Positions 17,432 to 53,758 of a DNA stretch of 58,043 nt are shown one piece after another. The notes below the pieces were generated by a model, which saw only the letters and a list, made by a program, of their open reading frames with translations, was not told the origin of the DNA and searched no databases. Origin of the DNA: a bacterium. GTDB taxonomy: Bacteria; Patescibacteriota; Patescibacteriia; Patescibacteriales; UBA12075. Location: NCBI GenBank assembly GCA_043820875.1, contig JBDRDI010000039.1, forward strand, positions 1 to 58,043, in the 5' to 3' direction. Both the position numbers and the translations under genes were made by a program. Each line of letters begins with the position of its first letter. The stretch's first letter is position 1.

Positions 17432-17500
17432 AAAAATACCGCATTTTTGTAGAGACAGGTTTCAAACCTGTCTCTACAAAAATGCGGTATTTTTTTATTT
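17426..17500. repeat. 75-bp perfect palindrome centred on REP core GTAGAGACAGGTTT-C-AAACCTGTCTCTAC; probably also a bidirectional terminator
   Basis: 37-bp arms pair perfectly around position 17463; lies between convergent rel and yqeY. Confidence 0.9.
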
Positions 17501-17949
17501 TATTCTGACAAAATCTTTTTGACAATCGCGTTGATTGCTCCTCCGTCCGCCTGACCTTTCAACTTGCCCATTACCGCTCCCATTGCTTTTCCCAAATCAT
17601 TTGCGGAAAATTCTCCTGAACTTATAATTTCTCGCGCGATTTTTTTAATTTCTTCCTCGCTCATCTGTTCCGGAACATATTTTGTTAAAATTTCTATTTC
17701 TTTTTTTTCCTTATCTGCCAAATCCGGACGAGAACCTTGCTCATAAGCAAGAATAGAATCTTTTCTTTTTTTTATTTCTGTTTTTATCACTGCCACAATT
17801 TGTTCATCGTTCAGATCATCACCTTGTTTCAATTCTATTTTTTTATTCTTAATGGTGGCAATAATCATACGCAAGGTTGATAATTCCAACTCGTTTTTAA
17901 CGCGCATAGCATCTTTCAAGTTGTTATTTATTTCTTCGAATTTTGACAT
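17500..17949 (-). CDS. yqeY: GatB/YqeY domain protein
   Basis: LKDAMRVK...LSTLRM...EIKKRKDSI.AYEQG.R.DLA.KE..EI.IL..Y.PEQMS...GKAMG.VM. Start re-assigned to MSKFEE because the longer ORF start lies inside a palindrome. Confidence 0.88.
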   Translation of the reverse strand: MSKFEEINNNLKDAMRVKNELELSTLRMIIATIKNKKIELKQGDDLNDEQIVAVIKTEIKKRKDSILAYEQGSRPDLADKEKKEIEILTKYVPEQMSEEEIKKIAREIISSGEFSANDLGKAMGAVMGKLKGQADGGAINAIVKKILSE

Positions 17950-18431: not shown

Positions 18432-19793
18432 CTACGCTTCTTCCGCATCCTTAATTCTTTTATTTATTTCATTATATATTTTTTTGTAATCAACAACTTC
18501 CTGCGTACCGGCTTCCATATCGCGGATAATGATTGTGCCGTCCAATAATTCTTTTTGTCCAAGAATCAAACTGAATCTCGCGCCGAGCGCGTTCGCATCT
18601 TCCAATTGCGCCTTTAAACTATCTTTGGTAAATGATTGGGCAATATTATATCCGGTGCGCCTCATTTCTTCAAAAAGCAGGAATACTTTCTTTCGCGCTC
18701 CTTCGCCAAGCTGGGCGATGAATATTAAATTTTTTCTATTATCCGTAATGGGGATATTACCTTCTTTTATTTTTGCCACCAACCTTTCCACTCCGATGCC
18801 AAAACCGCAAGCAAAAGTCGGCCTTCCTCCCATGTGTTCAATCAACCCGTCATAACGTCCTCCTCCTCCAAAAGAATCTTGTCTTTTTAATTCTCCTTCA
18901 ATCGCTTTCGCCGGCACCACTTCAAAAACGGTCCGATTATAATAATCCAATCCGCGCACAAGAAAAGGATCTAAATTATACGGTATGTTCATTTCATCCA
19001 AATATTCCAATACCCTAATAAAATGGTCGCGACAATCTTCACATAAAAAATCCACAATCTGCGGCGCTCCTTCCGCTACGTTTCGGCATTCATCTTCCTT
19101 ACAATCCAAAAGGCGCAAAGGATTTTTCACAAATCTTCTTTTACAATCATTACACAACTTGGATCTTTTTCCTCTTTCTTTATAAAATTCCACCAATTTT
19201 ATTACATACTCTTCGCGGCACTCTTCGCAGCCGATGCTGTTAATCTGAATCTGGACATCGATCTGCAGTTCTGAAAAAATGTTATAAACGATTAATATCA
19301 ACTGGCTGTCAGCCACCGGTCCTTCTTCACCAAATATGTCAAAATTTATCTGCGAATGCTGTCGATATCTTCCGGCTTGAGGTTTGTCGTGCCTAAAAAC
19401 CGGACCGAACCAATACGTTTTTACCGGCTGTGGTAAATTAAACATTCCTTGTTCAATATACGCTCTCGCTATACCGGGCGTGGCCTCAGGACGCAAAGCA
19501 ACTTTATCACCGCTTTTGTCTATGAATAAATACATTTCTTTGGAAACAATATCCGTTTCTTTGCCGGTTGATTTTTCATATAACTCCAAACGTTCCAAAA
19601 CCGGCGTTGCTATTCCTTTGAATCCATAAACTTCAGCCAAATCATTGGCCTTTTTTGTCACAACGTTCCAGTATTTATATTCATCAAATAAAATATCCTT
19701 CATCCCGCGAAGTCTAAAGAATTTTTTTTCTCTTCTTACGGGAATCTCATTATTGATTTCTTTTTTTATTAATTTTTTTAGCATAAAACTCAA
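18432..19793 (-). CDS. hisS: Histidine--tRNA ligase
   Basis: RGMKDIL; LRPEATPGIARAY; FRHDKPQAGRYRQH.Q; LVRGLDYYNRTVFE; GGGRYDGL; GFGIGVERL. Confidence 0.97.
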   Translation of the reverse strand: MSFMLKKLIKKEINNEIPVRREKKFFRLRGMKDILFDEYKYWNVVTKKANDLAEVYGFKGIATPVLERLELYEKSTGKETDIVSKEMYLFIDKSGDKVALRPEATPGIARAYIEQGMFNLPQPVKTYWFGPVFRHDKPQAGRYRQHSQINFDIFGEEGPVADSQLILIVYNIFSELQIDVQIQINSIGCEECREEYVIKLVEFYKERGKRSKLCNDCKRRFVKNPLRLLDCKEDECRNVAEGAPQIVDFLCEDCRDHFIRVLEYLDEMNIPYNLDPFLVRGLDYYNRTVFEVVPAKAIEGELKRQDSFGGGGRYDGLIEHMGGRPTFACGFGIGVERLVAKIKEGNIPITDNRKNLIFIAQLGEGARKKVFLLFEEMRRTGYNIAQSFTKDSLKAQLEDANALGARFSLILGQKELLDGTIIIRDMEAGTQEVVDYKKIYNEINKRIKDAEEA

Positions 19794-19814
19794 TAATTAT
19801 ATTCAATGGTTGTA

Positions 19815-20387
19815 TTAATTTCCATATTCAGGTGTTGTAAAAACTTTCATTTCATCAACCGGAAAACCACGAAAGAAAACTCGACCGACAATAAAACTTT
19901 TATTCACCGAACCGAAACTTCGGGAATCTTTTGAAGAATTCCGGTTATCTCCCAAAACATAATATTCATTTTCGCCCAATTTTATTTTTTCCGCCGAGGA
20001 GCTATAGGTTTTTACTCCATCCAAATATTCTTCTTCCAATATAAAACCGTTTTGACTATTACTGTTATATATAATAATATTTCCTTCTTTAATTTGAATT
20101 TCTTCGCCCGGCAAGCCAATCAGTCTTTTAATAAAATATTCCTGCGGATCTTTCGGATAGCGAAAAACAATAATGTCTCCTCTCTCCGGCGCGTTGAAAC
20201 GATATGAAAGTTCATCAATAATCAAATATTCGCGGTCATGGAAATTCGGTTCCATGGATTTACCATTTACATAAAACGGCTGAATCAAAAAATATCTAAC
20301 CGGAATAATGATTGCCAAAGAAACAACCACTATCTTTGATAATTCAAGTATAAAAAAGAAAATTTTCTTAAACATATAAAATAACAA
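19815..20387 (-). CDS. lepB: Signal peptidase I
   Basis: QPFYVNGKSMEPNF (catalytic Ser); YFIKRLIGLPG (catalytic Lys); GDNR.SSKDSR.FG. Confidence 0.95.
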   Translation of the reverse strand: MLFYMFKKIFFFILELSKIVVVSLAIIIPVRYFLIQPFYVNGKSMEPNFHDREYLIIDELSYRFNAPERGDIIVFRYPKDPQEYFIKRLIGLPGEEIQIKEGNIIIYNSNSQNGFILEEEYLDGVKTYSSSAEKIKLGENEYYVLGDNRNSSKDSRSFGSVNKSFIVGRVFFRGFPVDEMKVFTTPEYGN

Positions 20388-30441: not shown

Positions 30442-32871
30442 TTAGAAATCTCTTATTTGCGCGCCGAATTTTTCTTCCAGTTTTTTAATCAATCTTCCTT
30501 GAATTTCGTCCACTTCTTCGGCAGTCATGGTTTTATTTGTTTGATAAACAATATGAAAAGCCATGCTTTTTAAGCTCTTGCCTACCTTGTCACCTTCATA
30601 AATATCAAACAATTCGGCTTGCTTTATATACTCGTGAAAGTTTAATATTTCTCTTCTAATATCATTATACAATACTTTTTCATTTATGACAAAGGATAGG
30701 TCGCGTCCGGACGATGGAAATTTTAAAAATGCCTGAAATTTCTTTTCACCGGCGGCACGAATCGCTTTATTAAATTCCGTTAAACTAATCTCAACCACAG
30801 CCGCGCTTTTTTTAATGCCGTTCTTTTTGGCAATCGCGGATGAAAGAGAATAAACAAAACCAATTACCATTTGACCCGAGTTAACTTGTGCCGATTGACG
30901 CCCATCCGCCCAACCGGGAATATTTTCCGTAATATTAAATTCCAAATTTAAATTAAAACTTTCTCCAAGAAGCATAACTATCCCCTTGGCTTTATCAAAA
31001 GTTTCTCTTGCATTTTCTCCCGCGGAAACAACTCCCAAACGTTTTTCTTGATATGGCAAATTTTCGTTATCATGATCTCTTTTTTTCAATTCTCCATCTA
31101 TGGGCAAATACACGAAGCCGATTTCAAAAAAGGAAAATTCTTCATAACGCGCTTGATTTATTTTTATGTTGCCAAACAAATTCACAGCCATTGTTTGCCG
31201 TAAAAGCGATTGGTGCGAAGCAATCGGGTTTGCCAAACGAATATGAGAAGAAAAATCAACTCCCAATTTTTCCAGTTGATCTTCGCCCACAAAAGAATAA
31301 TTGTAAACTTCGGTAAGGCAAGCGCCAAGCGACAATAAATTTTTTATTTTCCTCTCCACTTCTCTTTCATTATTTGATAACGGCGCTTTCATTTCCACTC
31401 TAGGCATAACCGGAACCAAATTATCATATCCATAAATTCTGGTTATCTCTTCTATCAAGTCTTCCTTGATTGAAATATCTTTGGTTGCCCGCCAAGAAGG
31501 AACAATAATATTCAAAATATTATCTTTATTTTCCACTTCAAACCCCAAACTTTCCAAAGTTTTTATAATCCTCTTTTCCTCTACATCTTCGCCAATAATT
31601 TTTTTCACTAAGTTTAAATCCAATTCAATCGGGTCTTGATTTAATTTAAAATTTTTCTCGTCAGCGATTTCACTCTCAATCCGCGCGTTCGGAATTATCT
31701 TTTTTATCAATCCAGCGGCCAAGAGCATTGCTTCTTCGCATAAATTCGGATCCAAAAATTTTTCAAACCTAACCGATGATTCTGTGCGAAGACCCAATTT
31801 TTGGGAAGCTATCCTGATTGATGTGCTGTTAAAATTCGCTGATTCCAAAACAATGCTATCGGTTTCTTCGTTTATCCCGCTGTCTTCACCGCCCATTACG
31901 CCGGCGATAGCCAAAGGAAGTTTTTTATTGGCAATTAAAATCACTCCGTTGTCCAATTCTCTTTTTTGACCGTCCAGGGTGATGAAGTTTTCTCCTTTTT
32001 TAGCCTTACGGACAATAATCTCCGCTTCTTTTTCTTCGCCAAAAACCGTTCTTTTATCAAAAGCGTGCATTGGCTGGCCAAGTTCCAACATGACATAATT
32101 GGTAATATCCACGATGTTGTTGATTGGCTTCATTCCAACCGCAATCAATCTTTTTTGCATCCAATCCGGCGAAGGGGCGACTTTGATTCCACCAATACTT
32201 AAGGCCATATATCTTGGACAAAGAGAAGCGTCTTCAACTTTTATTTTTATCTTATTCTGAATATCTTTCTCTTTTGATTTTATTTCACTCTTGTCCCACA
32301 CTTTAAATTTTGTATTTAAAAAAGCCGCTATTTCACGCGCCATGCCAACATGACCCCAGAGATCCGGCCGATTGGTAATGGATTTATTATCCACTTCAAA
32401 AATAATATCATCATATCCCAAATAATCTCCGAAAGATTGTCCAACTTTTCCGCTTTGCAAAATCATTATTCCGGAATGATCATTTCCCAAACCAAGTTCA
32501 TCTTCGGCGCAAATCATACCGCAAGAAATTTCGCCTCGTACTTCCGCCTTTTTAATTTCCGCACCCCCTGGAAGAATTGTTCCAATCGTAGCGACCGGCA
32601 CTGTTTGCCCCTCTTCAATGTTGGACGCTCCGCAAACAACATCCAAAACTTCTGACCTGATATCAACTCGTACCAATTTTAAACGATCGGAATTGGGATG
32701 TTCTTTTATTTCCAAAATTTTTCCAACAACAATACCATCAAATTTGTTTTTTTGTTCAATAACACTATCTATCTCCACCGTGTGCATCGTGAGCTTTAGG
32801 CCCAATTCTTCGGAAGAAATATTTTTTGGAATATCCAGAAAATCTTTTAACCAATTCAAACTTAAATACAT
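30442..32871 (-). CDS. pheT: Phenylalanine--tRNA ligase beta subunit
   Basis: MYLSLNWLKDF; HPNSDRL; VVCGASN; RGEISCGMICAEDELG; NRPDL; INNIVDITNYVMLELGQPMHAFD; VPSWR..KDI; RDLSF. Confidence 0.97.
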   Translation of the reverse strand: MYLSLNWLKDFLDIPKNISSEELGLKLTMHTVEIDSVIEQKNKFDGIVVGKILEIKEHPNSDRLKLVRVDIRSEVLDVVCGASNIEEGQTVPVATIGTILPGGAEIKKAEVRGEISCGMICAEDELGLGNDHSGIMILQSGKVGQSFGDYLGYDDIIFEVDNKSITNRPDLWGHVGMAREIAAFLNTKFKVWDKSEIKSKEKDIQNKIKIKVEDASLCPRYMALSIGGIKVAPSPDWMQKRLIAVGMKPINNIVDITNYVMLELGQPMHAFDKRTVFGEEKEAEIIVRKAKKGENFITLDGQKRELDNGVILIANKKLPLAIAGVMGGEDSGINEETDSIVLESANFNSTSIRIASQKLGLRTESSVRFEKFLDPNLCEEAMLLAAGLIKKIIPNARIESEIADEKNFKLNQDPIELDLNLVKKIIGEDVEEKRIIKTLESLGFEVENKDNILNIIVPSWRATKDISIKEDLIEEITRIYGYDNLVPVMPRVEMKAPLSNNEREVERKIKNLLSLGACLTEVYNYSFVGEDQLEKLGVDFSSHIRLANPIASHQSLLRQTMAVNLFGNIKINQARYEEFSFFEIGFVYLPIDGELKKRDHDNENLPYQEKRLGVVSAGENARETFDKAKGIVMLLGESFNLNLEFNITENIPGWADGRQSAQVNSGQMVIGFVYSLSSAIAKKNGIKKSAAVVEISLTEFNKAIRAAGEKKFQAFLKFPSSGRDLSFVINEKVLYNDIRREILNFHEYIKQAELFDIYEGDKVGKSLKSMAFHIVYQTNKTMTAEEVDEIQGRLIKKLEEKFGAQIRDF

Positions 32872-32876
32872 ATGTT

Positions 32877-33899
32877 TTAAATAAAAAATCTTAAATCACC
32901 GCTATTAAAAAGCCGGATATCTTCAACCCCATACTTCATCATGGCCAGACGGGTAAGACCAAGTCCAAAAGCAAAACCGGAATATTTTTTTGAATCTATA
33001 CCACCGTATTTCAAAACATTGGGATGAACCATGCCGGCAGGAAAAATTTCCAACCAACCACTATGTTTACAAGCCGGGCATTTTGCGCCATTGCAAATTG
33101 TGCATTTAATATCCATTTCTATTGCCGGCTCCACAAAAGGAAAAAAGCCGGGTCGGATTCTTGTTTCCATTTCTTTCTTAAATATTTTATTAATCAATTC
33201 TTTCATCACGGAAATCATGTTGGCAATGGAAACATCTTCGTCAATCATCAATCCTTCCATCTGATAAAAAGTATGCTCGTGGCAAGCGTCAGTCGCTTCA
33301 CATCTGAATGTTCGACCCGGCGAGACGCATCGCAAAGGCGCGCCGTATTTTTGCATAGCACGAACCTGCACCGGCGAAGTATGCGGACGCATAACCATGT
33401 CGCACTGACCGGATTTATTTTTTGCGTCAATATAAAAAGTATCCTGCATGTCGCGCGCCGGATGATTGGGCGGAATATTCAAGGCTTCAAAACAAAAGTA
33501 ATCACTCTCCAGTTCAGGTCCGTCCAACACCATAAATCCCATGTCAGAAAACAAATCTTCCAGTTCGTTCTGCAATTTGGTGATCGGGTGCAGATGGCCG
33601 GCAACAATTTTTTCACCCGGCAAAGTCACGTCCGTAAAAGAGCTTTGTTGTCCCGACTTTTCAATTAAATTTTCCGCTTCCTTGAATTTCAAGGCCAAAT
33701 CGCTTTTTATTTCATTGGCCAACTGGCCAATTTCTTTTTTTTCCTCTTCTTTCAATTCTTTAATGCTTCGCAAAATTTGAGTAAGCTCTCCTTTTCTGCC
33801 AAAATATTTCACTTCCAATTCACGCAAAGCGGAAAGGTCGCGAACACTGGACAATTGATCCGATATTTCTTGTCTTAATTTATTTAATTTATTCTGCAT
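32877..33899 (-). CDS. pheS: Phenylalanine--tRNA ligase alpha subunit
   Basis: DVTLPG; GHLHP; HPARDMQDTFY; RPHTSPVQ; FYQMEGL; RPGFFPFVEP; GFAFGLGLTRLAM. Confidence 0.98.
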   Translation of the reverse strand: MQNKLNKLRQEISDQLSSVRDLSALRELEVKYFGRKGELTQILRSIKELKEEEKKEIGQLANEIKSDLALKFKEAENLIEKSGQQSSFTDVTLPGEKIVAGHLHPITKLQNELEDLFSDMGFMVLDGPELESDYFCFEALNIPPNHPARDMQDTFYIDAKNKSGQCDMVMRPHTSPVQVRAMQKYGAPLRCVSPGRTFRCEATDACHEHTFYQMEGLMIDEDVSIANMISVMKELINKIFKKEMETRIRPGFFPFVEPAIEMDIKCTICNGAKCPACKHSGWLEIFPAGMVHPNVLKYGGIDSKKYSGFAFGLGLTRLAMMKYGVEDIRLFNSGDLRFFI

Positions 33900-33905
33900 A
33901 TTAAC

Positions 33906-34328
33906 TTATCTTTGTTTATAACTTAATAAAAAAAATTCCAATATGGAAATTCCGGCCACCAAAAATAATAAATTCACCCAGGAAAACAAACCCCTTTCTT
34001 GCAAAAACAAACTCGCAATTAAGAGTAATGAAAACAAGAAAGACTGCCGAAACGCTTCTTTGACCGAATGAAAAGCCAATATTTGATGCCGACCGCCGCC
34101 ATCCTCTTCTTCTGAAGCTTCATAACGAGGCGAAAATATTACGAACCTGGCCGTAAAACCGATAATCGCGGCAGTACCAACGATGGACAGATAAAGCGAA
34201 ATATAAAACATCACCAAACCAATCCAATTCGTTTCTTCCGGATTAATGGTAAAAAGGACATAAATCCAGGCCAACCAACAAATTATGGTCATAAAAACCA
34301 TTATTTTTAAATACGAACCAAGGGTCAT
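33906..34328 (-). CDS. Four-TM hypothetical membrane protein with a polar insert in a loop
   Basis: Four hydrophobic segments; polar insert SPRYEASEEEDGGGRHQ before AFRQ. Confidence 0.7.
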   Translation of the reverse strand: MTLGSYLKIMVFMTIICWLAWIYVLFTINPEETNWIGLVMFYISLYLSIVGTAAIIGFTARFVIFSPRYEASEEEDGGGRHQILAFHSVKEAFRQSFLFSLLLIASLFLQERGLFSWVNLLFLVAGISILEFFLLSYKQR

Positions 34329-34377
34329 AATTTTTAAATAATACTTTTTTCCACTCTAACACTAAAAAAAACAAAAA

Positions 34378-35157
34378 TCAATTGGAATCAGCAATTGACT
34401 CGCAAGCCTGCTTTATTTCCTCGTCTGTAATGTTTGTGCAAAGCTTCGCGTCTTTGTTTTTTTGAACTTCATTAAAATAATATTGATTGAAGCAAATATT
34501 TTGGTTTTCTTTATCTTGAAGCTTCGCGCAATTTTCTTTACTCGTTAAAAGCAAGACTATGCAAGAATTTTTTAATCCGGAAACTAATTTTTCGCAAGCC
34601 ATAATATCTTTGTTCGCCTTGGCCATTTCATAATTTATCCAGTTTAAACAGTCATTTTTTACCTCCTCGTCCTTTATGTTTTTGCAAAGAGTTTCATCTT
34701 TATTTTCTATCGCAATATTTTTAAGACAGAGATCTGTGGCATCAATTTTGGGCATTTCCAAACATTTATCGCCTGTTTTTTCTTTCTTGGCCGCCGCATA
34801 AAGCTCTTCATTTTTTTGAAATTCCGCCGTAGCTATTTTTCGCTTTTCACTGTCCTCCGCGACCGCGATAGCATCTTCTTGAAAAGATCCGTTGACAAGC
34901 ACGTCGCAAAGTTTATTTAAATCCACTTTCATTCTCTCGGACAATTCTTTTTTGTCAGCCAAACACTTTTCCATGTTAAGTTCTTTTTTCTTTTTTTCTT
35001 CTAAAACGTTTTGAGAATTTTCTCCTGTTTTAATAGACTCTTTGTTTTTTATTATTTTAACTTGTCCTGTTTTATCCAAATAATAAAAAACACCGGCGCC
35101 AAAAACAAGAACGGCTAGAAAAACAATAATTGCGGTGATAATATTTTTTTTAGGCAT
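34378..35157 (-). CDS. Membrane-anchored protein with tandem two-Cys helical repeats
   Basis: N-terminal TM; repeats C-x9-11-C such as CLEMPKIDATDLC, CKNIKDEEVKNDC, CAKLQDKENQNIC, CTNITDEEIKQAC. Confidence 0.7.
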   Translation of the reverse strand: MPKKNIITAIIVFLAVLVFGAGVFYYLDKTGQVKIIKNKESIKTGENSQNVLEEKKKKELNMEKCLADKKELSERMKVDLNKLCDVLVNGSFQEDAIAVAEDSEKRKIATAEFQKNEELYAAAKKEKTGDKCLEMPKIDATDLCLKNIAIENKDETLCKNIKDEEVKNDCLNWINYEMAKANKDIMACEKLVSGLKNSCIVLLLTSKENCAKLQDKENQNICFNQYYFNEVQKNKDAKLCTNITDEEIKQACESIADSN

Positions 35158-46960: not shown

Positions 46961-49900
46961 TTACTTCGCGCATCTAAACCCTACCGTGCTCGTCGCTTCT
47001 GTTGGGCTATAACTCAGATTCAAATCGTATAATCCGATTTCACCGCGGACAAATCCTCTTAAGTTATTGCTATTATCCCCGTTCGACAAGCTCAGGGCAG
47101 GCGACTTAATCTTACCAATACCGTTGGCTGAATTGTAATAATATGGAGGCGCGATGTTTAAGCCTTTGTAATCCGTGATGTTGGAATATTCTTGCCAGTC
47201 GTTATCCATTGGCGCGACAATTCCGGACTTGGTAATTGTTTGGTCTGTCCACTCGCCCACTCCGCCGATGATATTATAAATCATATTACCGTTGGAAAGG
47301 GTGGAATAAATATTGGCTGTAATATATGAGTAAATATTTACGTCTGTCGCATCATAAACCGCCGCGGCTTGCCAAAGCTGTAATCCATCTTTTGCCACAT
47401 CAGCATCATTTTCCGCGGTTCTAATAATATTTTCCGCGATGGTGAGCCATTCATTCTCGCTCAAAAGGTGGTATCCTTCACCCACGCCAAGACAAGCCAG
47501 AGCGGCTTCTCCTTGCGACACGTTAACCCATGATATACTAGTCGTTGCTCCATCTCCAGCTCGCGCCTCGTCCGATTGCGCGCAGAATCCCGGCATGGTT
47601 CCGTATTTCGCGGAACCCGGCACCCATACATATCCATCATCGCATACAGATTCAAACGCGCCGGCAACGATTGTTCCTTCAACTCCCATATCACCCATTG
47701 TTTCATCCACCGCGTTATCCAATTCGCTACCACAAACTCCGCCCGAACAAACCATGATCCTGCCGTCAACGAGCATCTCTCCCACAACGGTCACTTGACC
47801 GGTTTGAGCGATATTAACGATTGAAATTCCTCCGGCTTGAAAATCAGCCACTGAAGCGTCTCCGCCTTGATTCACAACCAAAGCGGTTTTGTTTGTGCTT
47901 GTGGCAGTGATAATTTCCACAATAGCAACGTCTTCTTCAATCTCCACGGACGAACTGGCTGTATCCTCAATGTTCGTAATCTTTATATTTCCTTCCGCTG
48001 TTTCTTTAATTACTTCCGGCAGAGATGAACTGGCCAAATCAATTGAAGGGATAAATCCTGCTTGCCACGCCTCTAATATTCCCATTCTTGCATTCAAGTT
48101 ATTTGTACTATTTTCTAAAACGCCAACTCTGCTGATCAAGTCATCAGCGCTTGCGGATATTTGTACAAGTTGTCCATTCACAGCGTCAAATCTCACAGAC
48201 AAATCTTGATCAAACAAAGCAATCTGTTCTTCAGCAATATCTTTTATGTCTTGATCCAGATTCAAATTATTAACCGCGTTGGAAATAAGGATCTGCACTT
48301 CGTCTTCAATCTCCATGCTGGCGATGCGCTCTGTGATCTGAGCTTCCACAGCTTCCACAGTCAGACTCTTGTTTCTTCTGGATATCAGAACTTTTATCTC
48401 GCCAATTCCGCCTGAAAAAGATTCCAAAGCAACGCCCACGGTCGGATCTCCGACACCGGCTTTCATCACATATCCCGGAGTGCTGGACGCGCTGGTCAAC
48501 GAATCACCCGGCCTAATCTCGCCATTTTCAGACGACACCTTGGCAGGAACCTGACCAAGCATTCCAACAATTACATACTTATCATTGTCAACATATTCTT
48601 CTTTTCTATTACCAATAATCGCCGGCTTGGTAGAAACAATGCCCATCACATTTGAATCCGCTCCCCGATCGCATCTCTTCACCATATTGTTTTCCGTAAT
48701 ATCCACACAAACCACCTCTCCTGATTTCAAATCCGCTTCTCTTGCGCGAAAATATTCCGCGTAATCAGCGCCGGCGTTGTTAAACGCCACATCGGAAATC
48801 GCTTCGCCATTGCCCATCACTTTGAATCCGATACCTGTACTGGTGGAAACCGCGAATAAAGTATCAGTATTATCGCCGTCTGATTGATAAATATTTAATT
48901 TAGCAATTGGCGTCGTCGTCCCAATCCCCACATACCCCGCGTTCATATCTCCATAAATCGTATCACCGATGTTTAAGAATTTGTATGAAGCAGAGGAGGT
49001 GGCGTCAACGCCGTAGCCAATAATAATATTGTTTGAGCCTGTAGTAATATTATCTCCTGCCTGATAGCCCAATAATAAATTATTAGCGCCGGTGGTGTTG
49101 GCAAGGCCTGATTGATAGCCTACAAAAGTATTATTATCTGAACCTGTTTCCACGGCATAACCGCTCTTGTATCCGACGTAGACGCCATTTTGATTGGAAT
49201 AAGTGGCTGAACCTTGTGCAGATAAAGTACCAATAGCGATAGTAGAAGTGGCGGAAGTGTTGAAATAAAGAGACTGGCGTCCCACAGCTGAATTCTGTGA
49301 GCCGGTGGTGTTATAACGGAGAGACCAAGGTCCCAAAGCTGTATTATTTGTGCCGGTGGTGTTGGAGTAGAGAGAATGATATCCCAAAGCTGTATTATTT
49401 GAGCCGGTAGTGTTGGAATAGAGAGCTTGATAACCAATGCCGGTATTCCAATCCGAAGAAGTAGCCACATATCCCGCCTGATAACCGATGAAAGTATTAT
49501 ACAACCCATCAGCCAAAACATCTTTGCCCGCACCTTCGCCCACAAATATTCCTTTATTCGTGCTGGAAGCATATAAAATAGTATTGCCGGCTTGTTTGTA
49601 TCCGGAATATTGATTAACATTCACAAACCCATCCACATCCAAAGCATATTGAGGCGTCGTCGTCCCAATCCCCACATTCCCCACCTCATTAACATACAAC
49701 ATAGACGCGCCGGTGGAAGAAGCGATGTTCAACGGAGAAACGCCAGCTGAAGCTTGGACGGAGAGTTTGGAGAGGGGGGAGGTGGTGCCGATGCCGACAT
49801 TGCTATCAAAAGAAGCCACTCCATCAGCGTGAAATGTTCCTTGAACATCTAATTTATAATCAGGTGTAGTATCACTCCCTATTCCAACATTTCCATTTGA

Positions 49901-52900
49901 TGTATCTACGACCATTAACTTAGCAGTAAGATTATTTTGAAATTCAATTAAATTACCATAGCTCCTAAAATAGAAATTATTAGTTGTTCCTTCTAATCCA
50001 ACTATTCCTTTAATATTTCCAGAACCAGCCCCACGACTAAATAAAATAGCAGCATAACCATCAGTATTAGCATTATCAATAACAATAGCTGGATAGCCAC
50101 CATACGATGAGCTATTAGTGCTTTTTGAAATATGCAACATTACATCTGGACTCTCCGTCCCAATCCCCACATACCCATTAGTAGCCATATAAAGAGAAGA
50201 AGTAGCTGTTGGATTATTGCTGGCATCGCCGATGTAAATGTTGCCTGTGGCGAGGGTCATGTCAGAAAGAGAATCAAAAAGCCCCAAGGTGGAAGTCGCC
50301 ACCCAATTATATCCTGTTCCGGTAGTCTGCAAAACCATACCGTTCGTGCCGGCAGAATAAGTATTGTCATACAGCATGCCGGTTGCCATCATGTTGCCGG
50401 CGACTGTGAAGGTTGTGAAGGGGGTGGTTGTGCCGATGCCGATGTTGCCTGTACCTGCCCATGTCAATACTGGCGTTCCCAACGCTGTTTGCGAAGCTCC
50501 GTAACCAAGCGACCATTTATCCGCGGCATCATTTTGAATTAATCCATAATAAGATCCCGCGCTGTTCATAACAAACCCTGGTCCACTATTATTGTTGGCA
50601 TAGAACGGTACCCCAACTGATTGAGGACCTTCGCCATTGATTCTAAATCTTTCTGTATTGGCAGGTTTAAAAACGATAGCGTTGACGAGGCTGTTATAAT
50701 ACGTAGAGAAAGTCAAAGTCGTATATCCAGAATCATCATAAACGATATCCGCGTATTCTGTCGGTCCTGAAATACCGCCCAGTCTGATTGTTCCATTAAC
50801 TGAACCATAAGGACCATAATTAGACGCTATAACTCCTGCCACATCCAACTTATATTGTGGGCTGGTCGTCCCAATCCCCACATACCCCGCGTTCATATCT
50901 CCATAAATCGTATCACCGATGTTTAAGAATTTGTATGAAGCAGTGGAAGAAGCATCAACGTCATAGCCAATAATAATATTATTTGAACCTGTAGTAATAT
51001 TATCCCCTGCCTGATAGCCCAATAACAAATTATTAGCTCCGGTGGTGTTGGCAAGTCCTGATTGATAACCGAGGAAGGTATTGTTATCTGAACCTGTTTG
51101 GACAGCATAACCGCTTCGGTATCCGATATAGACGCCATTTTGGTTGGAATAATTGGCTGAACCTTGCGCGGCATAAGCTCCGATAGCGACAGAGGAAGTG
51201 GCGGAAATGTTGTAATAAAGAGAATAATATCCCATAGCTGAATTATCTGAGCCGGTAGTGTTGAAAGGAAGCGAAGCATATCCCACAGCTAAATTACTCG
51301 AGCCGGTGGTGTTGGAGTAAAGAGATGACCGTCCCACAGCTGAATTATTTGAGCCGGTGGTGTTGAAGCGGAGAGAATCATTTCCTATAGCTGAATTACT
51401 TGAGCCGGTGGTGTTGGTGTAGAGAGAATTATATCCCATAGCCGTATTATAATCCCCCTCGGTGTTGGCAACGAGAGAATCCCTTCCCATAGCTGAGTTA
51501 CCTTTGCCGATGGTGTTGGCAAGAAGAGAGCTGACTCCCATAGCTGAATTATTTGAGCCGGTAGTGTTGGAACTAAGAGAATAACTTCCCATAGCTAAAT
51601 TAAATGAGCCGGTGGTGTTAGTGTGGAGAGAATTATATCCTATAGCTGAGTTATTCGAGCCGGTGGTGTTGTTATATCCCGCCTGATAACCAATAAAAGT
51701 ATTATACAGCCCATCAGCCAAAACATCTTTTCCAGCATCTTCACCCACAAATGTTCCTTTATTCGTGCTGGAAGCATATAAAATAGTATTGCCGGCTTGT
51801 TTGTATCCGGAATATTGATTTGTATTTATAAAACCACCCACGTCTAATTTATATGACGGAGAAATGTTGCCGATGCCCACATTCCCATTTGTATCCATAT
51901 AAATAGAAGAAGTCGCAATCGGATTATTGCTGGCATCGCCGATGTAGATGTTGCCTGTTGCCAATGTCATGTCAGAGAGGGAATCATAAAGCCCCAGAGT
52001 GGAAGTCGCCACCCAATTATATCCTGTGCCGGTAGTCTGCAAAATCATGCCGTTCGTGCCGGCAGAATAAGCATTGTCATACAACATTCCAGTTGCCATC
52101 ATGTTGCCGGCGACTGTGAAGTTGGTGAACGGGGTTGAGCTTCCCACTCCGAGATAGCCGTTGAAATTACCAGTGTTGAATGTTGAACTGCCACTGACTA
52201 TCAAATTTGTCGTTGACGCTTGCGTTGCGGCGGTTAATGTTCCTGTCCATAAGTCTGAAGCGACAGTAAGGTCGGTTGTTGAAGCATAATTTACGGTTAA
52301 TGCTCCATCTATCCTTGTATTCCCGTAAACATCGAGAGTGTAGGCTGGCGTGGTGGTGCCGATGCCGACATTCCCGTTCGGCATCATAAATATTGTGGAA
52401 GTGCCGGAAAGAGCTGTTCCGTCCGCGGCGTAATAAGCAATTTGACCCGCGTCTCCCAATTCAACCAAACCGGAAGAAGACGCCAAACTATCTATGTTAA
52501 TCCACGAACCGGACAAGTCTTTATATTGCATCGCGCCTGCCGAATCCCTAAAGCCATATCCGGACGTGCCAGTGTCATAGCCAAAATTCAAATATCTGTC
52601 AGCACCTTCCAGTAAAGCATCTCCGTACACGACAAAGTTGGTTAACGGTGTTGAAGTGCCGACGCCCACATAGCCACTATTTAATATAATCATGGAGCTG
52701 GTTGCCCCGCTTAAAAATTCCGCGATATTTCCGGATCCGTTTTGAGTGACAGTCAACGCCGTATCGCTTGAACTTGTCGCTATATCAACAATATTATTAA
52801 AGCTCCATGCGCCAGTGACGGTTTCGTCTTCCGAAAGAGTCGCGAATTCACCTTCTCTTTTGCCGCCGACTTCCATGGCGTAAAAAGCGTACGGGAAAGA

Positions 52901-53509
52901 AGTCGTGAGTTTTCTGGGTTGCATCAATTCGCCATTGAATGTTATTTCCAAATACATTGAGTCGCTGAAATCGGTGGTTGAAATATCCTCCACCGAGCCC
53001 AAATTCACATCCACAATTCCGCCTTCAATGCGCGGGCGGTTGTTAATGCTGTCTCCAACTGTCCAGGTCTCTGAGGTGCTGGCTACAATGATTGTATTAT
53101 TATCGTTGCCATATCCAACAATCAAAGCGTAATCCGACGCAGTGGAATCGGTAAGATATTGTCCGACCCTGAGTGTTGTTGTCGCAAGTCCGGCGGAATA
53201 AGTATATTGAATACCGTCAGAAACACTATCCACGGCACTGATTGTTCCGGAGAACATATTAGCCGCATTCAAAGTTTCCGTCCAAATGGCAGTACCGCTG
53301 GTTGATGAAGCATATAAGCTGAAAACAAAGTCATAATTTCCATCCGCGATTTCCCCGCCGGCCGTAGTAGTCACTTTGCCGGAAAAATTAAGCATGAACG
53401 GAACGGTCTGCGCGCGAGCCGGAAGAGGACAAATTTGCACAGCAAAAATCGCCGTCAACACGATTGGCGCCAGTACAAATTTTGCAATTGTCCTAATTAA
53501 CTTTTCCAT
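46961..53509 (-). CDS. Giant (2182 aa) secreted tail-fibre/trimeric-adhesin-like protein with GIGTT repeats, YadA-like repeats, a Peptidase_G2-like chaperone and a C-terminal C-type-lectin (FGE-like) domain
   Basis: Signal peptide; many VGIGTT(S/T)P boxes; NS(A/T)xGxxSLxxNTTG repeats; AGADYAEYF...GEVVCVD...GIVSTKP...GQVPAKV; C-terminus WVNVSQGEAALAC...HLLSENEW...GGVGEW...VGFRCAK. Confidence 0.78.
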   Translation of the reverse strand: MEKLIRTIAKFVLAPIVLTAIFAVQICPLPARAQTVPFMLNFSGKVTTTAGGEIADGNYDFVFSLYASSTSGTAIWTETLNAANMFSGTISAVDSVSDGIQYTYSAGLATTTLRVGQYLTDSTASDYALIVGYGNDNNTIIVASTSETWTVGDSINNRPRIEGGIVDVNLGSVEDISTTDFSDSMYLEITFNGELMQPRKLTTSFPYAFYAMEVGGKREGEFATLSEDETVTGAWSFNNIVDIATSSSDTALTVTQNGSGNIAEFLSGATSSMIILNSGYVGVGTSTPLTNFVVYGDALLEGADRYLNFGYDTGTSGYGFRDSAGAMQYKDLSGSWINIDSLASSSGLVELGDAGQIAYYAADGTALSGTSTIFMMPNGNVGIGTTTPAYTLDVYGNTRIDGALTVNYASTTDLTVASDLWTGTLTAATQASTTNLIVSGSSTFNTGNFNGYLGVGSSTPFTNFTVAGNMMATGMLYDNAYSAGTNGMILQTTGTGYNWVATSTLGLYDSLSDMTLATGNIYIGDASNNPIATSSIYMDTNGNVGIGNISPSYKLDVGGFINTNQYSGYKQAGNTILYASSTNKGTFVGEDAGKDVLADGLYNTFIGYQAGYNNTTGSNNSAIGYNSLHTNTTGSFNLAMGSYSLSSNTTGSNNSAMGVSSLLANTIGKGNSAMGRDSLVANTEGDYNTAMGYNSLYTNTTGSSNSAIGNDSLRFNTTGSNNSAVGRSSLYSNTTGSSNLAVGYASLPFNTTGSDNSAMGYYSLYYNISATSSVAIGAYAAQGSANYSNQNGVYIGYRSGYAVQTGSDNNTFLGYQSGLANTTGANNLLLGYQAGDNITTGSNNIIIGYDVDASSTASYKFLNIGDTIYGDMNAGYVGIGTTSPQYKLDVAGVIASNYGPYGSVNGTIRLGGISGPTEYADIVYDDSGYTTLTFSTYYNSLVNAIVFKPANTERFRINGEGPQSVGVPFYANNNSGPGFVMNSAGSYYGLIQNDAADKWSLGYGASQTALGTPVLTWAGTGNIGIGTTTPFTTFTVAGNMMATGMLYDNTYSAGTNGMVLQTTGTGYNWVATSTLGLFDSLSDMTLATGNIYIGDASNNPTATSSLYMATNGYVGIGTESPDVMLHISKSTNSSSYGGYPAIVIDNANTDGYAAILFSRGAGSGNIKGIVGLEGTTNNFYFRSYGNLIEFQNNLTAKLMVVDTSNGNVGIGSDTTPDYKLDVQGTFHADGVASFDSNVGIGTTSPLSKLSVQASAGVSPLNIASSTGASMLYVNEVGNVGIGTTTPQYALDVDGFVNVNQYSGYKQAGNTILYASSTNKGIFVGEGAGKDVLADGLYNTFIGYQAGYVATSSDWNTGIGYQALYSNTTGSNNTALGYHSLYSNTTGTNNTALGPWSLRYNTTGSQNSAVGRQSLYFNTSATSTIAIGTLSAQGSATYSNQNGVYVGYKSGYAVETGSDNNTFVGYQSGLANTTGANNLLLGYQAGDNITTGSNNIIIGYGVDATSSASYKFLNIGDTIYGDMNAGYVGIGTTTPIAKLNIYQSDGDNTDTLFAVSTSTGIGFKVMGNGEAISDVAFNNAGADYAEYFRAREADLKSGEVVCVDITENNMVKRCDRGADSNVMGIVSTKPAIIGNRKEEYVDNDKYVIVGMLGQVPAKVSSENGEIRPGDSLTSASSTPGYVMKAGVGDPTVGVALESFSGGIGEIKVLISRRNKSLTVEAVEAQITERIASMEIEDEVQILISNAVNNLNLDQDIKDIAEEQIALFDQDLSVRFDAVNGQLVQISASADDLISRVGVLENSTNNLNARMGILEAWQAGFIPSIDLASSSLPEVIKETAEGNIKITNIEDTASSSVEIEEDVAIVEIITATSTNKTALVVNQGGDASVADFQAGGISIVNIAQTGQVTVVGEMLVDGRIMVCSGGVCGSELDNAVDETMGDMGVEGTIVAGAFESVCDDGYVWVPGSAKYGTMPGFCAQSDEARAGDGATTSISWVNVSQGEAALACLGVGEGYHLLSENEWLTIAENIIRTAENDADVAKDGLQLWQAAAVYDATDVNIYSYITANIYSTLSNGNMIYNIIGGVGEWTDQTITKSGIVAPMDNDWQEYSNITDYKGLNIAPPYYYNSANGIGKIKSPALSLSNGDNSNNLRGFVRGEIGLYDLNLSYSPTEATSTVGFRCAK

Positions 53510-53528
53510 TTTATATTTAATTTATATT

Positions 53529-53758
53529 TTGTCATTCCGAATCCCCGCGCTTTTTTATTTTTGTCATTCCGAATCCCCGCGCCGCAGCGGGGTGAGGAAT
53601 CGCTTCGACTTTTTAATCGCGCGAATTTTGGCATAAACCATTTCAACGAGGATTAACTGAGCAACGGATGGCAATTAACATATTCTTACGGCATTCGCGT
53701 TTTTATCTCTTGCCTTGTCGAAGGGATTCCTCGCCCTGCGGCGGGTTCGGAATGACAA
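53529..53758. mobile_element. Second GTCATTCCGAA MITE/REPIN-like element (53561-53758) with a duplicated left end (53529-53550)
   Basis: TTGTCATTCCGAATCCCCGCGC occurs twice, 32 bp apart; right end GCGGGTTCGGAATGACAA; interior alignable to 24141-24394. Confidence 0.75.

What the first reader, a model, noticed from the sequence alone, without database searches (positions are those of the whole stretch)
48915..52140. Modular fibre gene: internal duplication with swapped cassettes joined at conserved GIGTT DNA boxes
Seen: three blocks recur, including 79 bp identical at 48915-48993/50865-50943, 67 bp identical at 49549-49615/51754-51820 and a close copy at about 50190-50420/51905-52135. Offsets differ (1950, 2205, about 1710), so modules were gained or lost between blocks. 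The 16-mer GTCCCAATCCCCACAT occurs at 48918, 49662, 50157 and 50868, and a second codon version (GTGCCGATGCCGA) near 49785, 50425 and 52355. The module at about 49800-50150 is visibly more AT-rich. Inference: the boxes act as crossover points for shuffling or importing binding modules.
Basis: partly seen in the sequence, partly recalled or inferred. Interest (0 to 1): 0.65.

Follow-up and report, generated by a model that had tools for sequence, protein, structure and literature searches.

The report
Fibre gene reshuffled at conserved boxes
The repeats lie in the shaft of a 2182-residue surface fibre protein of an ultrasmall (CPR/Patescibacteria-type) bacterium, and the recurring "GIGTT" boxes encode a known structural loop that also marks where duplications, insertions and foreign-looking patches begin and end, much as conserved motifs do in phage tail-fibre genes.

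Summary
One minus-strand gene (46961-53509, 2182 aa) carries 11 boxes encoding xVGIGTxxPxxKL. It contains an internal duplication A-B / A'-B' at 82-89% nt identity. The three offsets are explained: 2205-1710 = 495 nt is a 165-codon D-E-F block lying between A' and B', and 2205-1950 = 255 nt is five fewer 17-aa repeat units in B'.

The box is the "capping loop" motif of trimeric beta-helix modules described for Bdellovibrio MAT fibres, so its protein-level conservation is structural.

DNA-level exchange at the boxes is also supported:
- Four boxes share a codon version expected about 1e-4 per box.
- Boxes 7 and 10 form a 17-nt direct repeat flanking D-E-F.
- B/B' homology ends right after box 5/11, preceded by 25 identical codons.
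- An AT3-rich patch (GC3 0.10) ends within 2 codons of box 9.
- In relatives, the C-terminal cassette joins unrelated shafts at the last box.
- Across 16 genes, 30 box pairs have identical cores but unrelated flanks, against 2.75 expected.

No close alleles or reads were available, so active shuffling is inferred, not shown. The modules are shaft segments, not demonstrated binding modules. This is a new member of a known kind (T-even tail-fibre motif recombination; MAT fibres).

The parts
46961..53509 (-). Fibre gene, 2182 aa. In order: signal-peptide-like N-terminus, conserved N-terminal domain (aa 35-280), modular shaft (aa 281-1526), Peptidase_G2-type IMC domain, stalk, C-terminal FGE-sulfatase/CLec-like domain.
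   Evidence: ORF and translation. PF11962 E 4.8e-6, 26.6 bits against cut-off 25; PF03781 E 0.0027, below cut-off. More than 3300 homologues, named 'tail fiber domain-containing protein' or 'trimeric autotransporter adhesin' by their sources.
52655..52669 (-). Box 1 (aa 281, YVGVGTSTP). It ends the conserved N-terminal domain.
   Evidence: N-terminal matches in relatives end at aa 285-302.
52355..52369 (-). Box 2 (aa 381), codon version v2: GTC GGC ATC GGC ACC.
   Evidence: Shares a 21-nt exact run with box 9, although modules m2 and F are unrelated.
52139..52153 (-). Box 3 (aa 453, YLGVGSSTP), lying before module A.
   Evidence: It is diverged from box 6; A/A' identity starts 6-10 codons downstream.
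51881..52153 (-). Module A (aa 453-543), first copy.
   Evidence: 260 nt at 89% identity to A'; 92% aa identity.
51866..51880 (-). Box 4 (aa 544, NVGIGNISP), the A|B junction of copy 1.
   Evidence: Here copy 1 stops matching A'/box 7 and starts matching box 10/B'.
50882..51880 (-). Module B (aa 544-876), with an array of about 8.9 units of 51 nt (17 aa, consensus NTTGSNNSAxGYxSLxS) at 51208-51671.
50867..50881 (-). Box 5 (aa 877), codon version v1: GTG GGG ATT GGG ACG.
   Evidence: It ends the 79-nt perfect tract. B/B' homology stops right after GIGTT.
50444..50881 (-). Module C (aa 877-1022), single copy, lying between the two duplicate units.
   Evidence: No internal paralogue.
50171..50443 (-). 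Box 6 plus module A' (aa 1023-1113), second copy of A.
50156..50170 (-). Box 7 (aa 1114), v1. It is the left direct repeat flanking D-E-F.
   Evidence: 17-nt exact repeat with box 10.
49676..50170 (-). Modules D, E and F (aa 1114-1278), 165 codons. They lie between A' and B' and are absent between A and B.
   Evidence: Offset arithmetic and junction alignment. Module GC3 values: D 0.19, E 0.13, F 0.66.
49805..50095 (-). AT3-rich tract (codons 1139-1235, GC3 0.10). The 3' edge has a support interval of aa 1225-1238, which includes box 9. The 5' edge is resolved only to aa 1095-1140, which includes box 7.
49784..49798 (-). Box 9 (aa 1238), v2. A sharp GC3 switch from about 0.10 to about 0.7 occurs at its 5' edge.
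49661..49675 (-). Box 10 (aa 1279), v1. It is the right direct repeat flanking D-E-F.
48932..49675 (-). Module B' (aa 1279-1526), second copy of B, with only about 3.7 repeat units (49257-49447).
   Evidence: 316 nt at 82% plus 506 nt at 85% identity to B; repeat counts.
48917..48931 (-). Box 11 (aa 1527), v1. This is the junction to the IMC-stalk-lectin cassette.
   Evidence: In many of the 17 relatives' proteins that carry the cassette, homology to it begins within a few residues of their own last box, e.g. L039 574/576, L029 2027/2027, L031 3934/3936.
48915..48993 (-). 79-nt tract identical to 50865-50943 (25 identical codons, ending in box 11/5). Probable gene-conversion patch.
   Evidence: Runs of 25 and 22 identical codons have P = 0.009 and 0.0002 when only synonymous differences are shuffled.
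49549..49615 (-). 67-nt tract identical to 51754-51820 (22 identical codons, inside B'/B).

Best explanation
The region is the modular shaft of a secreted, probably trimeric, MAT-like surface fibre. Each beta-helix module is delimited by a capping-loop motif, xVGIGTxxPxxKLxV, which is the 'GIGTT box'. Because this loop is kept by structural selection, it supplies short stretches of near-identical DNA (16-26 nt here) scattered through otherwise dissimilar modules. Recombination and short-tract gene conversion between these stretches have remodelled the gene. The traceable events are: (1) a segmental duplication A-B to A'-B'; (2) a 165-codon D-E-F block gained or lost between two identical boxes; (3) a compositionally foreign, AT3-rich patch that ends at a box; (4) homogenisation of box DNA within the gene. 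On a longer timescale, the N-terminal domain and the C-terminal IMC-stalk-lectin cassette are joined to unrelated shafts at the first and last box.

Shown directly: where the junctions lie, that boxes are identical by descent, and that box pairs in relatives share codon versions more often than expected.

Inferred: that homology at the box, rather than only selection afterwards, directs the crossovers; the direction and order of the events; and trimeric assembly.
For: The box equals a structural loop. The only PDB sequence match is Bd2133 (8OND, E 7e-4), and it aligns through that protein's own boxes. The paper on these fibres defines a capping-loop consensus V-G-G/N-pi-x-x-P-x-x-x-L at beta-helix edges (PMC10769870).

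Identity by descent. The v1 codons are expected at 1e-4 per box from the gene's own codon usage (GGG is 6% of Gly codons), yet 4 of 11 boxes carry them. Boxes 2 and 9 share 21 nt although their modules are unrelated. Against a stricter null built from box-position-specific codon frequencies, 4 of 6 gives P = 6e-9.

Junctions. Copy 1 switches from matching A' to matching B' inside box 4, and boxes 7 and 10 form a 17-nt direct repeat flanking D-E-F. B/B' homology ends immediately after box 5/11. The GC3 change-point lies 2 codons from box 9.

Conversion patches. Runs of 25 and 22 identical codons have P = 0.009 and 0.0002.

Relatives. 60-78% of homology-block ends lie within 20 aa of a box against 33% expected. 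The cassette junction is at the last box on shafts of about 570 to over 8000 aa.

Family-wide. 30 identical 15-nt box cores have unrelated flanks against 2.75 expected. Within genes 5.7% of such pairs are identical; between loci 1.1%.
Against: Selection for foldable proteins alone would also place surviving junctions at module borders. No experiment or population data show that crossovers start in the boxes.

The left edge of A/A' is not in a box core, and boxes 3 and 6 are diverged. One conversion tract and the repeat-number change lie inside module B.

Boxes have a codon bias of their own: the second Gly is GGG in 45% of sampled boxes. This inflates significance values computed from codon usage outside boxes. 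Box pairs are not independent of one another.

Identity of 16-26 nt is at or below the usual length needed for efficient RecA-dependent exchange (general knowledge, not tested here).

No donor for the AT3 patch was found; the best matches are 30-44% identical. HSP-end counts among relatives are small (n = 27-38) and phylogenetically non-independent.
Confidence: 0.6

Rival explanations
1. Structural filter only. Rearrangements arise anywhere, by illegitimate recombination or slippage. Only those that keep whole beta-helix modules, and so join at capping loops, survive. On this view the boxes have no role at DNA level, and box identity reflects recent duplications plus ordinary gene conversion between paralogous segments.
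For: The box is a proven structural element in homologues. Protein-level conservation of 'FLNIG(D/N)TIYGD(M/L)xAGxVGIGTTTP' across genera shows strong constraint. Some tract edges are not at boxes.
Against: This does not explain identical synonymous sites confined to boxes whose flanks are unrelated: boxes 2/9, 7/10, 7/5 and 7/11. It also does not explain the roughly 5-fold higher within-gene than between-locus box identity, or the direct repeat exactly flanking D-E-F.
Confidence: 0.22
2. Box-specific codon preference. Selection on translation or mRNA at the loop (for example a pause for co-translational folding) fixes particular codons, so boxes converge on the same DNA without any recombination.
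For: There is a class-wide position-specific bias inside boxes: Gly2 is GGG in 45% and Val is GTC in 67% of 150 sampled boxes, against about 9% GGG outside boxes in relatives' genes.
Against: The 11 boxes of this one gene use at least 6 different codon versions. v1 is not the preferred class-wide version: 2/150, with a position-specific expectation of 0.44% per box. Yet it fills 4 of 6 VGIGT boxes here (P = 6e-9). Box versions track the GC3 of the adjoining module.
Confidence: 0.08
3. Assembly artefact. The genome is a 60-contig metagenome-assembled draft. The module order, or the sharp composition switch, could be a chimeric join between strains or paralogues at perfect repeats.
For: Perfect repeats of 79 and 67 nt exist inside the gene.
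Against: The duplicates differ about every 7-10 nt, so short reads should resolve them. The frame stays open for 2182 codons. No alternative-allele contigs exist in the assembly; the only hits are 76-79 nt at 77-81% on C42. The composition switch at box 9 coincides with only 21 nt of repeat. Relatives show comparable E-F-like mini-modules upstream of a large module and the cassette.
Confidence: 0.06
4. Programmed variation. The repeats would belong to a dedicated diversification system: either a diversity-generating retroelement acting on the gene, or silent cassettes recombined into an expression site.
For: The genome encodes two RT genes of DGR-like size, each with its own local 116-127-nt repeat pair. 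The fibre ends in a CLec/FGE-like domain.
Against: No segment of the fibre gene matches either RT locus beyond chance (best E 0.049). The genome has only one short paralogue and no cassette array. Duplicate divergence is spread over all bases and includes amino-acid changes, insertions and deletions.
Confidence: 0.02

Closest known systems
Bdellovibrio bacteriovorus MAT (mosaic adhesive trimer) fibres, e.g. Bd2133 (PDB 8OND) and Bd3182; Caulton et al. 2024, PMC10769870
   Same: Secreted fibre with a conserved N-terminal part. The shaft is built of beta-helix modules bounded by the capping-loop motif V-G-x-G/N-pi-x-x-P-x-x-x-L, which is the GIGTT box. There is an autoproteolytic chaperone domain and a variable adhesive tip that can include a C-type-lectin fold, and the domain composition is mosaic. 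There is a direct sequence match through the boxes.
   Different: This protein is about twice as long (2182 aa against about 1000). The chaperone is of Peptidase_G2 type rather than S74 type, and it is internal, about 480-655 residues from the C-terminus. The host is a CPR-type bacterium. The paper does not discuss DNA-level recombination at the loops: 'recombination' appears only in its methods.
Conserved-motif recombination in T-even phage tail-fibre adhesins (gp37 and gp38 glycine-rich motifs); Tetart et al. 1996/1998 as cited in Trojet et al. 2011, PMC3157838
   Same: [quoted passage not shown] This is the same logic proposed here.
   Different: The proteins and motifs are unrelated (glycine-rich motifs forming a core, not beta-helix capping loops). 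The phage case has experimental crosses. Here there is only comparative and compositional evidence, in a cellular genome.
Phage phi29 gp12 pre-neck appendage / Peptidase_G2 intramolecular chaperone (Pfam PF11962)
   Same: A Pfam match just over the gathering threshold lies immediately after the last box.
   Different: This concerns the part downstream of the finding. It is not at the protein's end here, and cleavage is untested.
Trimeric autotransporter adhesins (YadA-like), the name some sources give to homologues
   Same: Long repetitive fibre with short Gly/Asn/Ser-rich repeats. The 17-aa NTTGSNNSAxGY units are reminiscent of head repeats.
   Different: No YadA anchor or other TAA Pfam domain was detected. 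Not a member.

Membership tests
MAT (mosaic adhesive trimer) fibre superfamily (PMC10769870) | Beta-helix shaft modules carrying the capping-loop motif V-G-x-G/N-pi-x-x-P-x-x-x-L | tested here: met
   Eleven boxes fit the consensus. phmmer hit to Bd2133 8OND, E 7e-4, with all three informative stretches aligned through that protein's boxes.
MAT (mosaic adhesive trimer) fibre superfamily (PMC10769870) | Signal peptide followed by the conserved beta-rich N-terminal domain of about 130 aa shared by all 21 Bdellovibrio MATs | not tested
   A hydrophobic N-terminus with ...PARA|QT is visible in the translation. An N-terminal domain (aa 5-300) is conserved at about 50% among CPR relatives. No Bdellovibrio N-terminal domain was available for comparison.
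MAT (mosaic adhesive trimer) fibre superfamily (PMC10769870) | C-terminal S74 chaperone/protease, or an alternative adhesive tip domain | tested here: inconclusive
   The domain found is Peptidase_G2 (PF11962, 26.6 bits against cut-off 25), not S74, and it is internal. The FGE-sulfatase/CLec-like tip scores only E 0.0027, below cut-off. Most homologues carry PF13884 (S74).
MAT (mosaic adhesive trimer) fibre superfamily (PMC10769870) | Intertwined homotrimer | not testable with these tools
   The single-chain AF2 model failed (mean pLDDT 34). No multimer prediction is available.
Trimeric autotransporter adhesins | C-terminal YadA-type beta-barrel membrane anchor | tested here: not met
   No such Pfam or NCBIfam match in the whole protein or in 8 segments at E <= 1.
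Diversity-generating retroelement target | A template repeat near an RT gene that matches a variable region of the gene | tested here: not met
   Two RT loci exist (C8, C21) with their own local repeat pairs, but neither matches the fibre gene (best E 0.049).
Conserved-motif-mediated tail-fibre recombination (T-even type; a functional class, not a homology family) | Exchange breakpoints concentrated in conserved motifs between variable segments | tested here: met
   Intragenic junctions at boxes 4, 5/11, 7, 9 and 10. Among relatives, 60-78% of block ends lie within 20 aa of a box against 33% expected. This is comparative evidence only.
Conserved-motif-mediated tail-fibre recombination (T-even type; a functional class, not a homology family) | Experimentally observed recombinants with crossovers in the motifs | not testable with these tools
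   No cultured organism. No close alleles were found.

The most novel reading that the evidence does not exclude
The capping-loop box may be kept uniform at nucleotide level, beyond what the protein needs, because it serves as a portable recombination linker. The same 15-21-nt version (GGG xAT GTG GGG ATT GGG ACG) occurs in this gene and in fibre genes of five other genera of the same family/order, in different module contexts (6 boxes against <=0.47 expected). The exact 21-mer also occurs in many other bacterial phyla, archaeal MAGs and viral contigs. If the linker is maintained by frequent exchange or by GC-biased conversion, CPR bacteria, and perhaps their phages, would share a common system for swapping fibre shaft and tip cassettes.
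Probability: 0.17. Interest if true: 0.65.

Novelty: new member of a known kind. Interest (0 to 1): 0.4.

Why it matters
CPR/Patescibacteria are thought to live attached to other microbes, and how they recognise hosts is largely unknown. Giant MAT-like fibres are plausible host-contact organelles. A gene architecture that lets shaft length and tip cassettes be re-assorted at a conserved loop would explain the very wide length range (about 0.9 to 8.8 kaa) and mosaicism of these proteins among related genomes. It would also give a concrete, testable handle, the boxes, for following fibre evolution in metagenomes. The principle itself is already known from phage tail fibres, so this extends a known idea to a new host group and motif rather than establishing a new mechanism.

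Tried and rejected
1. Whole-protein Pfam and NCBIfam scans gave nothing. Scanning in segments recovered PF11962 and a weak PF03781 match.

2. The other 2192-aa giant ORF in the window (6484-13062) is unrelated.

3. Binary segmentation of GC3 found no change-point. Optimal partitioning did.

4. A single-sequence AF2 model of aa 994-1320 was unusable (pLDDT 34), so no fold search was run.

5. The search for alleles or close relatives failed. The protein collection gave at most 52% local identity, metagenome contigs 39-46%, and relatives' genomes 31-60%. No donor for the AT3 patch was found.

7. HSP-end statistics on the wide protein collection were uninformative, because the hits are dominated by the 17-aa repeat array.

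8. A 'pan-domain canonical box' is not supported. There are at least 119 genomic and 112 viral exact 21-mer hits, but an unbiased class-wide sample shows v1 at 2/150, close to expectation. The raw counts mainly reflect how many boxes exist.

9. No nucleotide similarity beyond 20-30 nt around boxes was found between this shaft and any fetched locus. Recent inter-genome module transfer is therefore not shown.

10. Apparent colinearity E-F-B'-IMC with the G014 protein is loose and box-anchored (34% identity, 21% gaps). It does not date the E|F junction.

11. A DGR acting on this gene is rejected.

Full report
**What is there.**
The window is contig C39 of a 0.92-Mb, 60-contig, 92.5%-complete draft genome with 37% GC. 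Homologues are mostly annotated in Patescibacteria/CPR, and the neighbouring genes encode surface or envelope proteins: FN3, a Wzy_C O-antigen-ligase-like protein, PT/TSP3 repeats and a vWA adhesin.

The protein has these parts:
- a signal-peptide-like N-terminus;
- an N-terminal domain (aa 35-280) conserved at about 50% among relatives;
- a shaft (aa 281-1526);
- a Peptidase_G2-type intramolecular-chaperone domain directly after the last box (PF11962, E 4.8e-6);
- a stalk;
- a weak FGE-sulfatase/CLec-like C-terminal domain.

**Checking the observation.**
The 79-nt and 67-nt perfect repeats, the four copies of the 16-mer (expected 0.03) and the three copies of the 13-mer are all exact.

In protein terms there are 11 boxes [x]VGIGTxxP, at aa 281, 381, 453, 544, 877, 1023, 1114, 1208, 1238, 1279 and 1527. 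They cut the shaft into modules:

m1 - m2 - A - B - C - A' - D - E - F - B' - (IMC)

A/A' are 92% identical in protein and 89% in DNA. B/B' are 82-85% identical in DNA.

The three offsets have a simple cause:
- 2205-1710 = 495 nt is the 165-codon D-E-F block, present between A' and B' but absent between A and B.
- 2205-1950 = 255 nt is five 51-nt (17-aa) repeat units: about 8.9 in B and about 3.7 in B'.

The AT-rich module is real and extreme. Codons 1139-1235 have GC3 = 0.10, while the genome's genes have a median of 0.37. Only 0.03% of 97-codon windows in this genome are that low.

**What the box is.**
The only solved structure with sequence similarity is Bd2133 (8OND), a Bdellovibrio MAT fibre. 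All informative aligned stretches run through that protein's own boxes: SGNLGLGTAAPTSALHV, GLVGINTAAPLQKLHV and AGNVGIGATAPTAKLEVAG. The paper on these fibres describes 'capping loops' on the edges of the trimeric beta-helix modules, with consensus V-G-G/N-pi-x-x-P-x-x-x-L, also present in MyRF (PMC10769870).

The GIGTT box is therefore an established structural element at module edges. That explains its protein-level conservation without any reference to DNA.

**Is there more at the DNA level? Evidence within this gene.**

1. *Codon versions.* Four boxes (5, 7, 10, 11) use GTG GGG ATT GGG ACG. GGG is only 6% of glycine codons elsewhere in the gene, so the expectation is 1e-4 per box. Boxes 2 and 9 share a 21-nt exact run (version GTC GGC ATC GGC ACC), although their modules m2 and F show no similarity. 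The other boxes use other codons, so this is not a uniform codon preference.

2. *Junctions at nucleotide resolution.* Copy 1 matches A' up to 'AAT GGG xAT GTG GG', and matches B' again from a few codons after the box core. Both ends of the D-E-F indel are therefore inside a box. Boxes 7 and 10 form a 17-nt exact direct repeat flanking D-E-F. B/B' homology ends immediately after GIGTT of box 5/11. The left edge of A/A' is different: boxes 3 and 6 are diverged, and identity starts 6-10 codons later.

3. *Conversion patches.* B/B' contain runs of 25 and 22 identical codons in a background where 64% of aligned codons are identical. Shuffling only the synonymous differences gives P = 0.009 and 0.0002. 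The longer run ends in box 5/11.

4. *Composition.* The 3' edge of the AT3 tract has a support interval of aa 1225-1238, and GC3 switches from about 0.1 to about 0.7 exactly at box 9. The 5' edge is only resolved to aa 1095-1140, which includes box 7. Box codon versions tend to match the GC3 of the adjoining module.

**Evidence from relatives.**
There are no close alleles; the best local identity in the shaft is 45-52%.

Among 60 genomes of the same family or order, the IMC-stalk-lectin cassette (46-58% identity) sits on shafts from about 570 to over 8000 aa that are otherwise unrelated. The homology commonly begins at the relative's last box, for example 574/576, 2027/2027 and 3934/3936. N-terminal-domain matches end at aa 285-302, which is box 1.

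Ends of homology blocks of at least 80 aa lie within 20 aa of a box in 60-78% of cases, against 33% expected. The numbers are small (n = 27-38) and not independent.

Across 16 fibre genes, 30 box pairs have identical 15-nt cores although both flanks are unrelated, against 2.75 expected from codon usage. Six genes, including this one, are individually significant at P < 0.01. Within-gene identity (5.7% of such pairs) is about five times between-locus identity (1.1%).

**How far does box sharing between genomes go?**
Version v1 also occurs in five other genera of the family/order, in different module contexts: 6 of 107 boxes, against 0.018 expected from codon usage outside boxes.

The exact 21-mer is found in at least 119 genomic stretches, covering many CPR phyla, Bdellovibrionales, Bacteroidota, Planctomycetes, Gammaproteobacteria and archaeal MAGs, and in 112 viral stretches.

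An unbiased sample tempers this. I searched the degenerate back-translation of G(N/Y)VGIGT in 400 genomes of the class. It shows that boxes have their own position-specific codon bias (second Gly is GGG in 45%, Val is GTC in 67%), and that v1 is not special class-wide: 2/150 against 0.66 expected.

With this stricter null, v1 is still enriched in this gene (4 of 6, P = 6e-9) and in the close relatives (6 against <=0.47 expected, P = 9e-6). No nucleotide similarity beyond 20-30 nt around boxes links this shaft to any fetched locus.

Homogenisation within genes and within the clade is therefore supported. A universal 'canonical' linker, or recent inter-genome transfer, is not.

**Interpretation.**
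The best reading (confidence about 0.6) is that the capping-loop motif is conserved for structural reasons and thereby provides islands of near-identical DNA. Recombination and short-tract conversion between these islands have produced the duplication, the D-E-F indel, the patch boundary and the homogenised boxes. Over longer times the same process has re-assorted N-terminal, shaft and C-terminal cassettes.

The main rival is a purely structural filter on random rearrangements. It explains where junctions survive, but not identity at synonymous sites that is confined to boxes. The other rivals are weaker:
- a box-specific codon preference;
- programmed variation. The genome has two RT loci with their own repeat pairs, but neither matches this gene.

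The swapped units are shaft segments, not demonstrated binding modules. Not all edges are at boxes. The repeat-number difference arises inside the 17-aa array.

**Novelty.**
This is a new member of a known kind: a MAT-like fibre in a CPR bacterium showing conserved-motif-associated recombination. I treat that as a lead, and my class-wide sample argues against its boldest reading.

Noticed in passing
window 53527-53550 and 53559-53582: A perfect 24-nt direct repeat, TTTTGTCATTCCGAATCCCCGCGC, occurs twice, starting 18 nt upstream of the fibre gene's start codon. It looks like a REP-type element in the 5' leader.
   Followed up: no
G000 contig C8 about 32682-34521 and contig C21 about 16194-17920 (outside the window): Two reverse-transcriptase genes (375 and 348 aa, PF00078 about 84 bits). 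Each has a nearby imperfect repeat pair: 116 nt at 90.5% and 127 nt at 82.7%. These are candidate diversity-generating retroelements. Neither matches the fibre gene.
   Followed up: partly
class-wide sample of 150 boxes, and relatives L024-L042: Inside G(N/Y)VGIGT boxes codon choice is strongly position-specific. The second Gly is GGG in 45% of boxes (about 9% of Gly codons outside boxes), Val is GTC in 67%, and the preceding Gly is GGC in 67%. The cause is unknown; GC-biased conversion at recombining boxes is one untested idea.
   Followed up: partly
window 39279-42209 (-): A 976-aa AddA/RecB-like helicase-nuclease (UvrD helicase plus PD-(D/E)XK nuclease), so the genome has at least part of an end-processing recombination pathway.
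   Followed up: no
window 42343-42894 (-): A 183-aa IS200/Y1-transposase-like (RAYT-type) gene lies a few kb downstream of the fibre gene.
   Followed up: no
window 6484-13062 (-): A second giant ORF (2192 aa), unrelated to the fibre. It has a T4SS-pilin/TrbC-like N-terminus followed by Big_5, TIG and FN3 domains.
   Followed up: no
G000 contig C42 about 19273-20010 (-), loci L002-L004: The only paralogue in the genome is a 720-aa open frame with boxes. It shares 76-79-nt stretches at 77-81% nt identity with the m1/m2 boundary and with A' of the fibre gene.
   Followed up: partly
relatives L029, L031, L032, G014 (L025/L026): Mini-modules of 41-43 aa between boxes, similar to module F and to the first module after box 11, recur in pairs or triplets just upstream of larger modules. 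They look like a standard adaptor unit of these fibres.
   Followed up: no
relative G014 contig C8 (L025/L026): One relative encodes an 8794-aa open frame with 34 boxes that ends in the same IMC-stalk-lectin cassette. This shows the extreme length range of the family.
   Followed up: no
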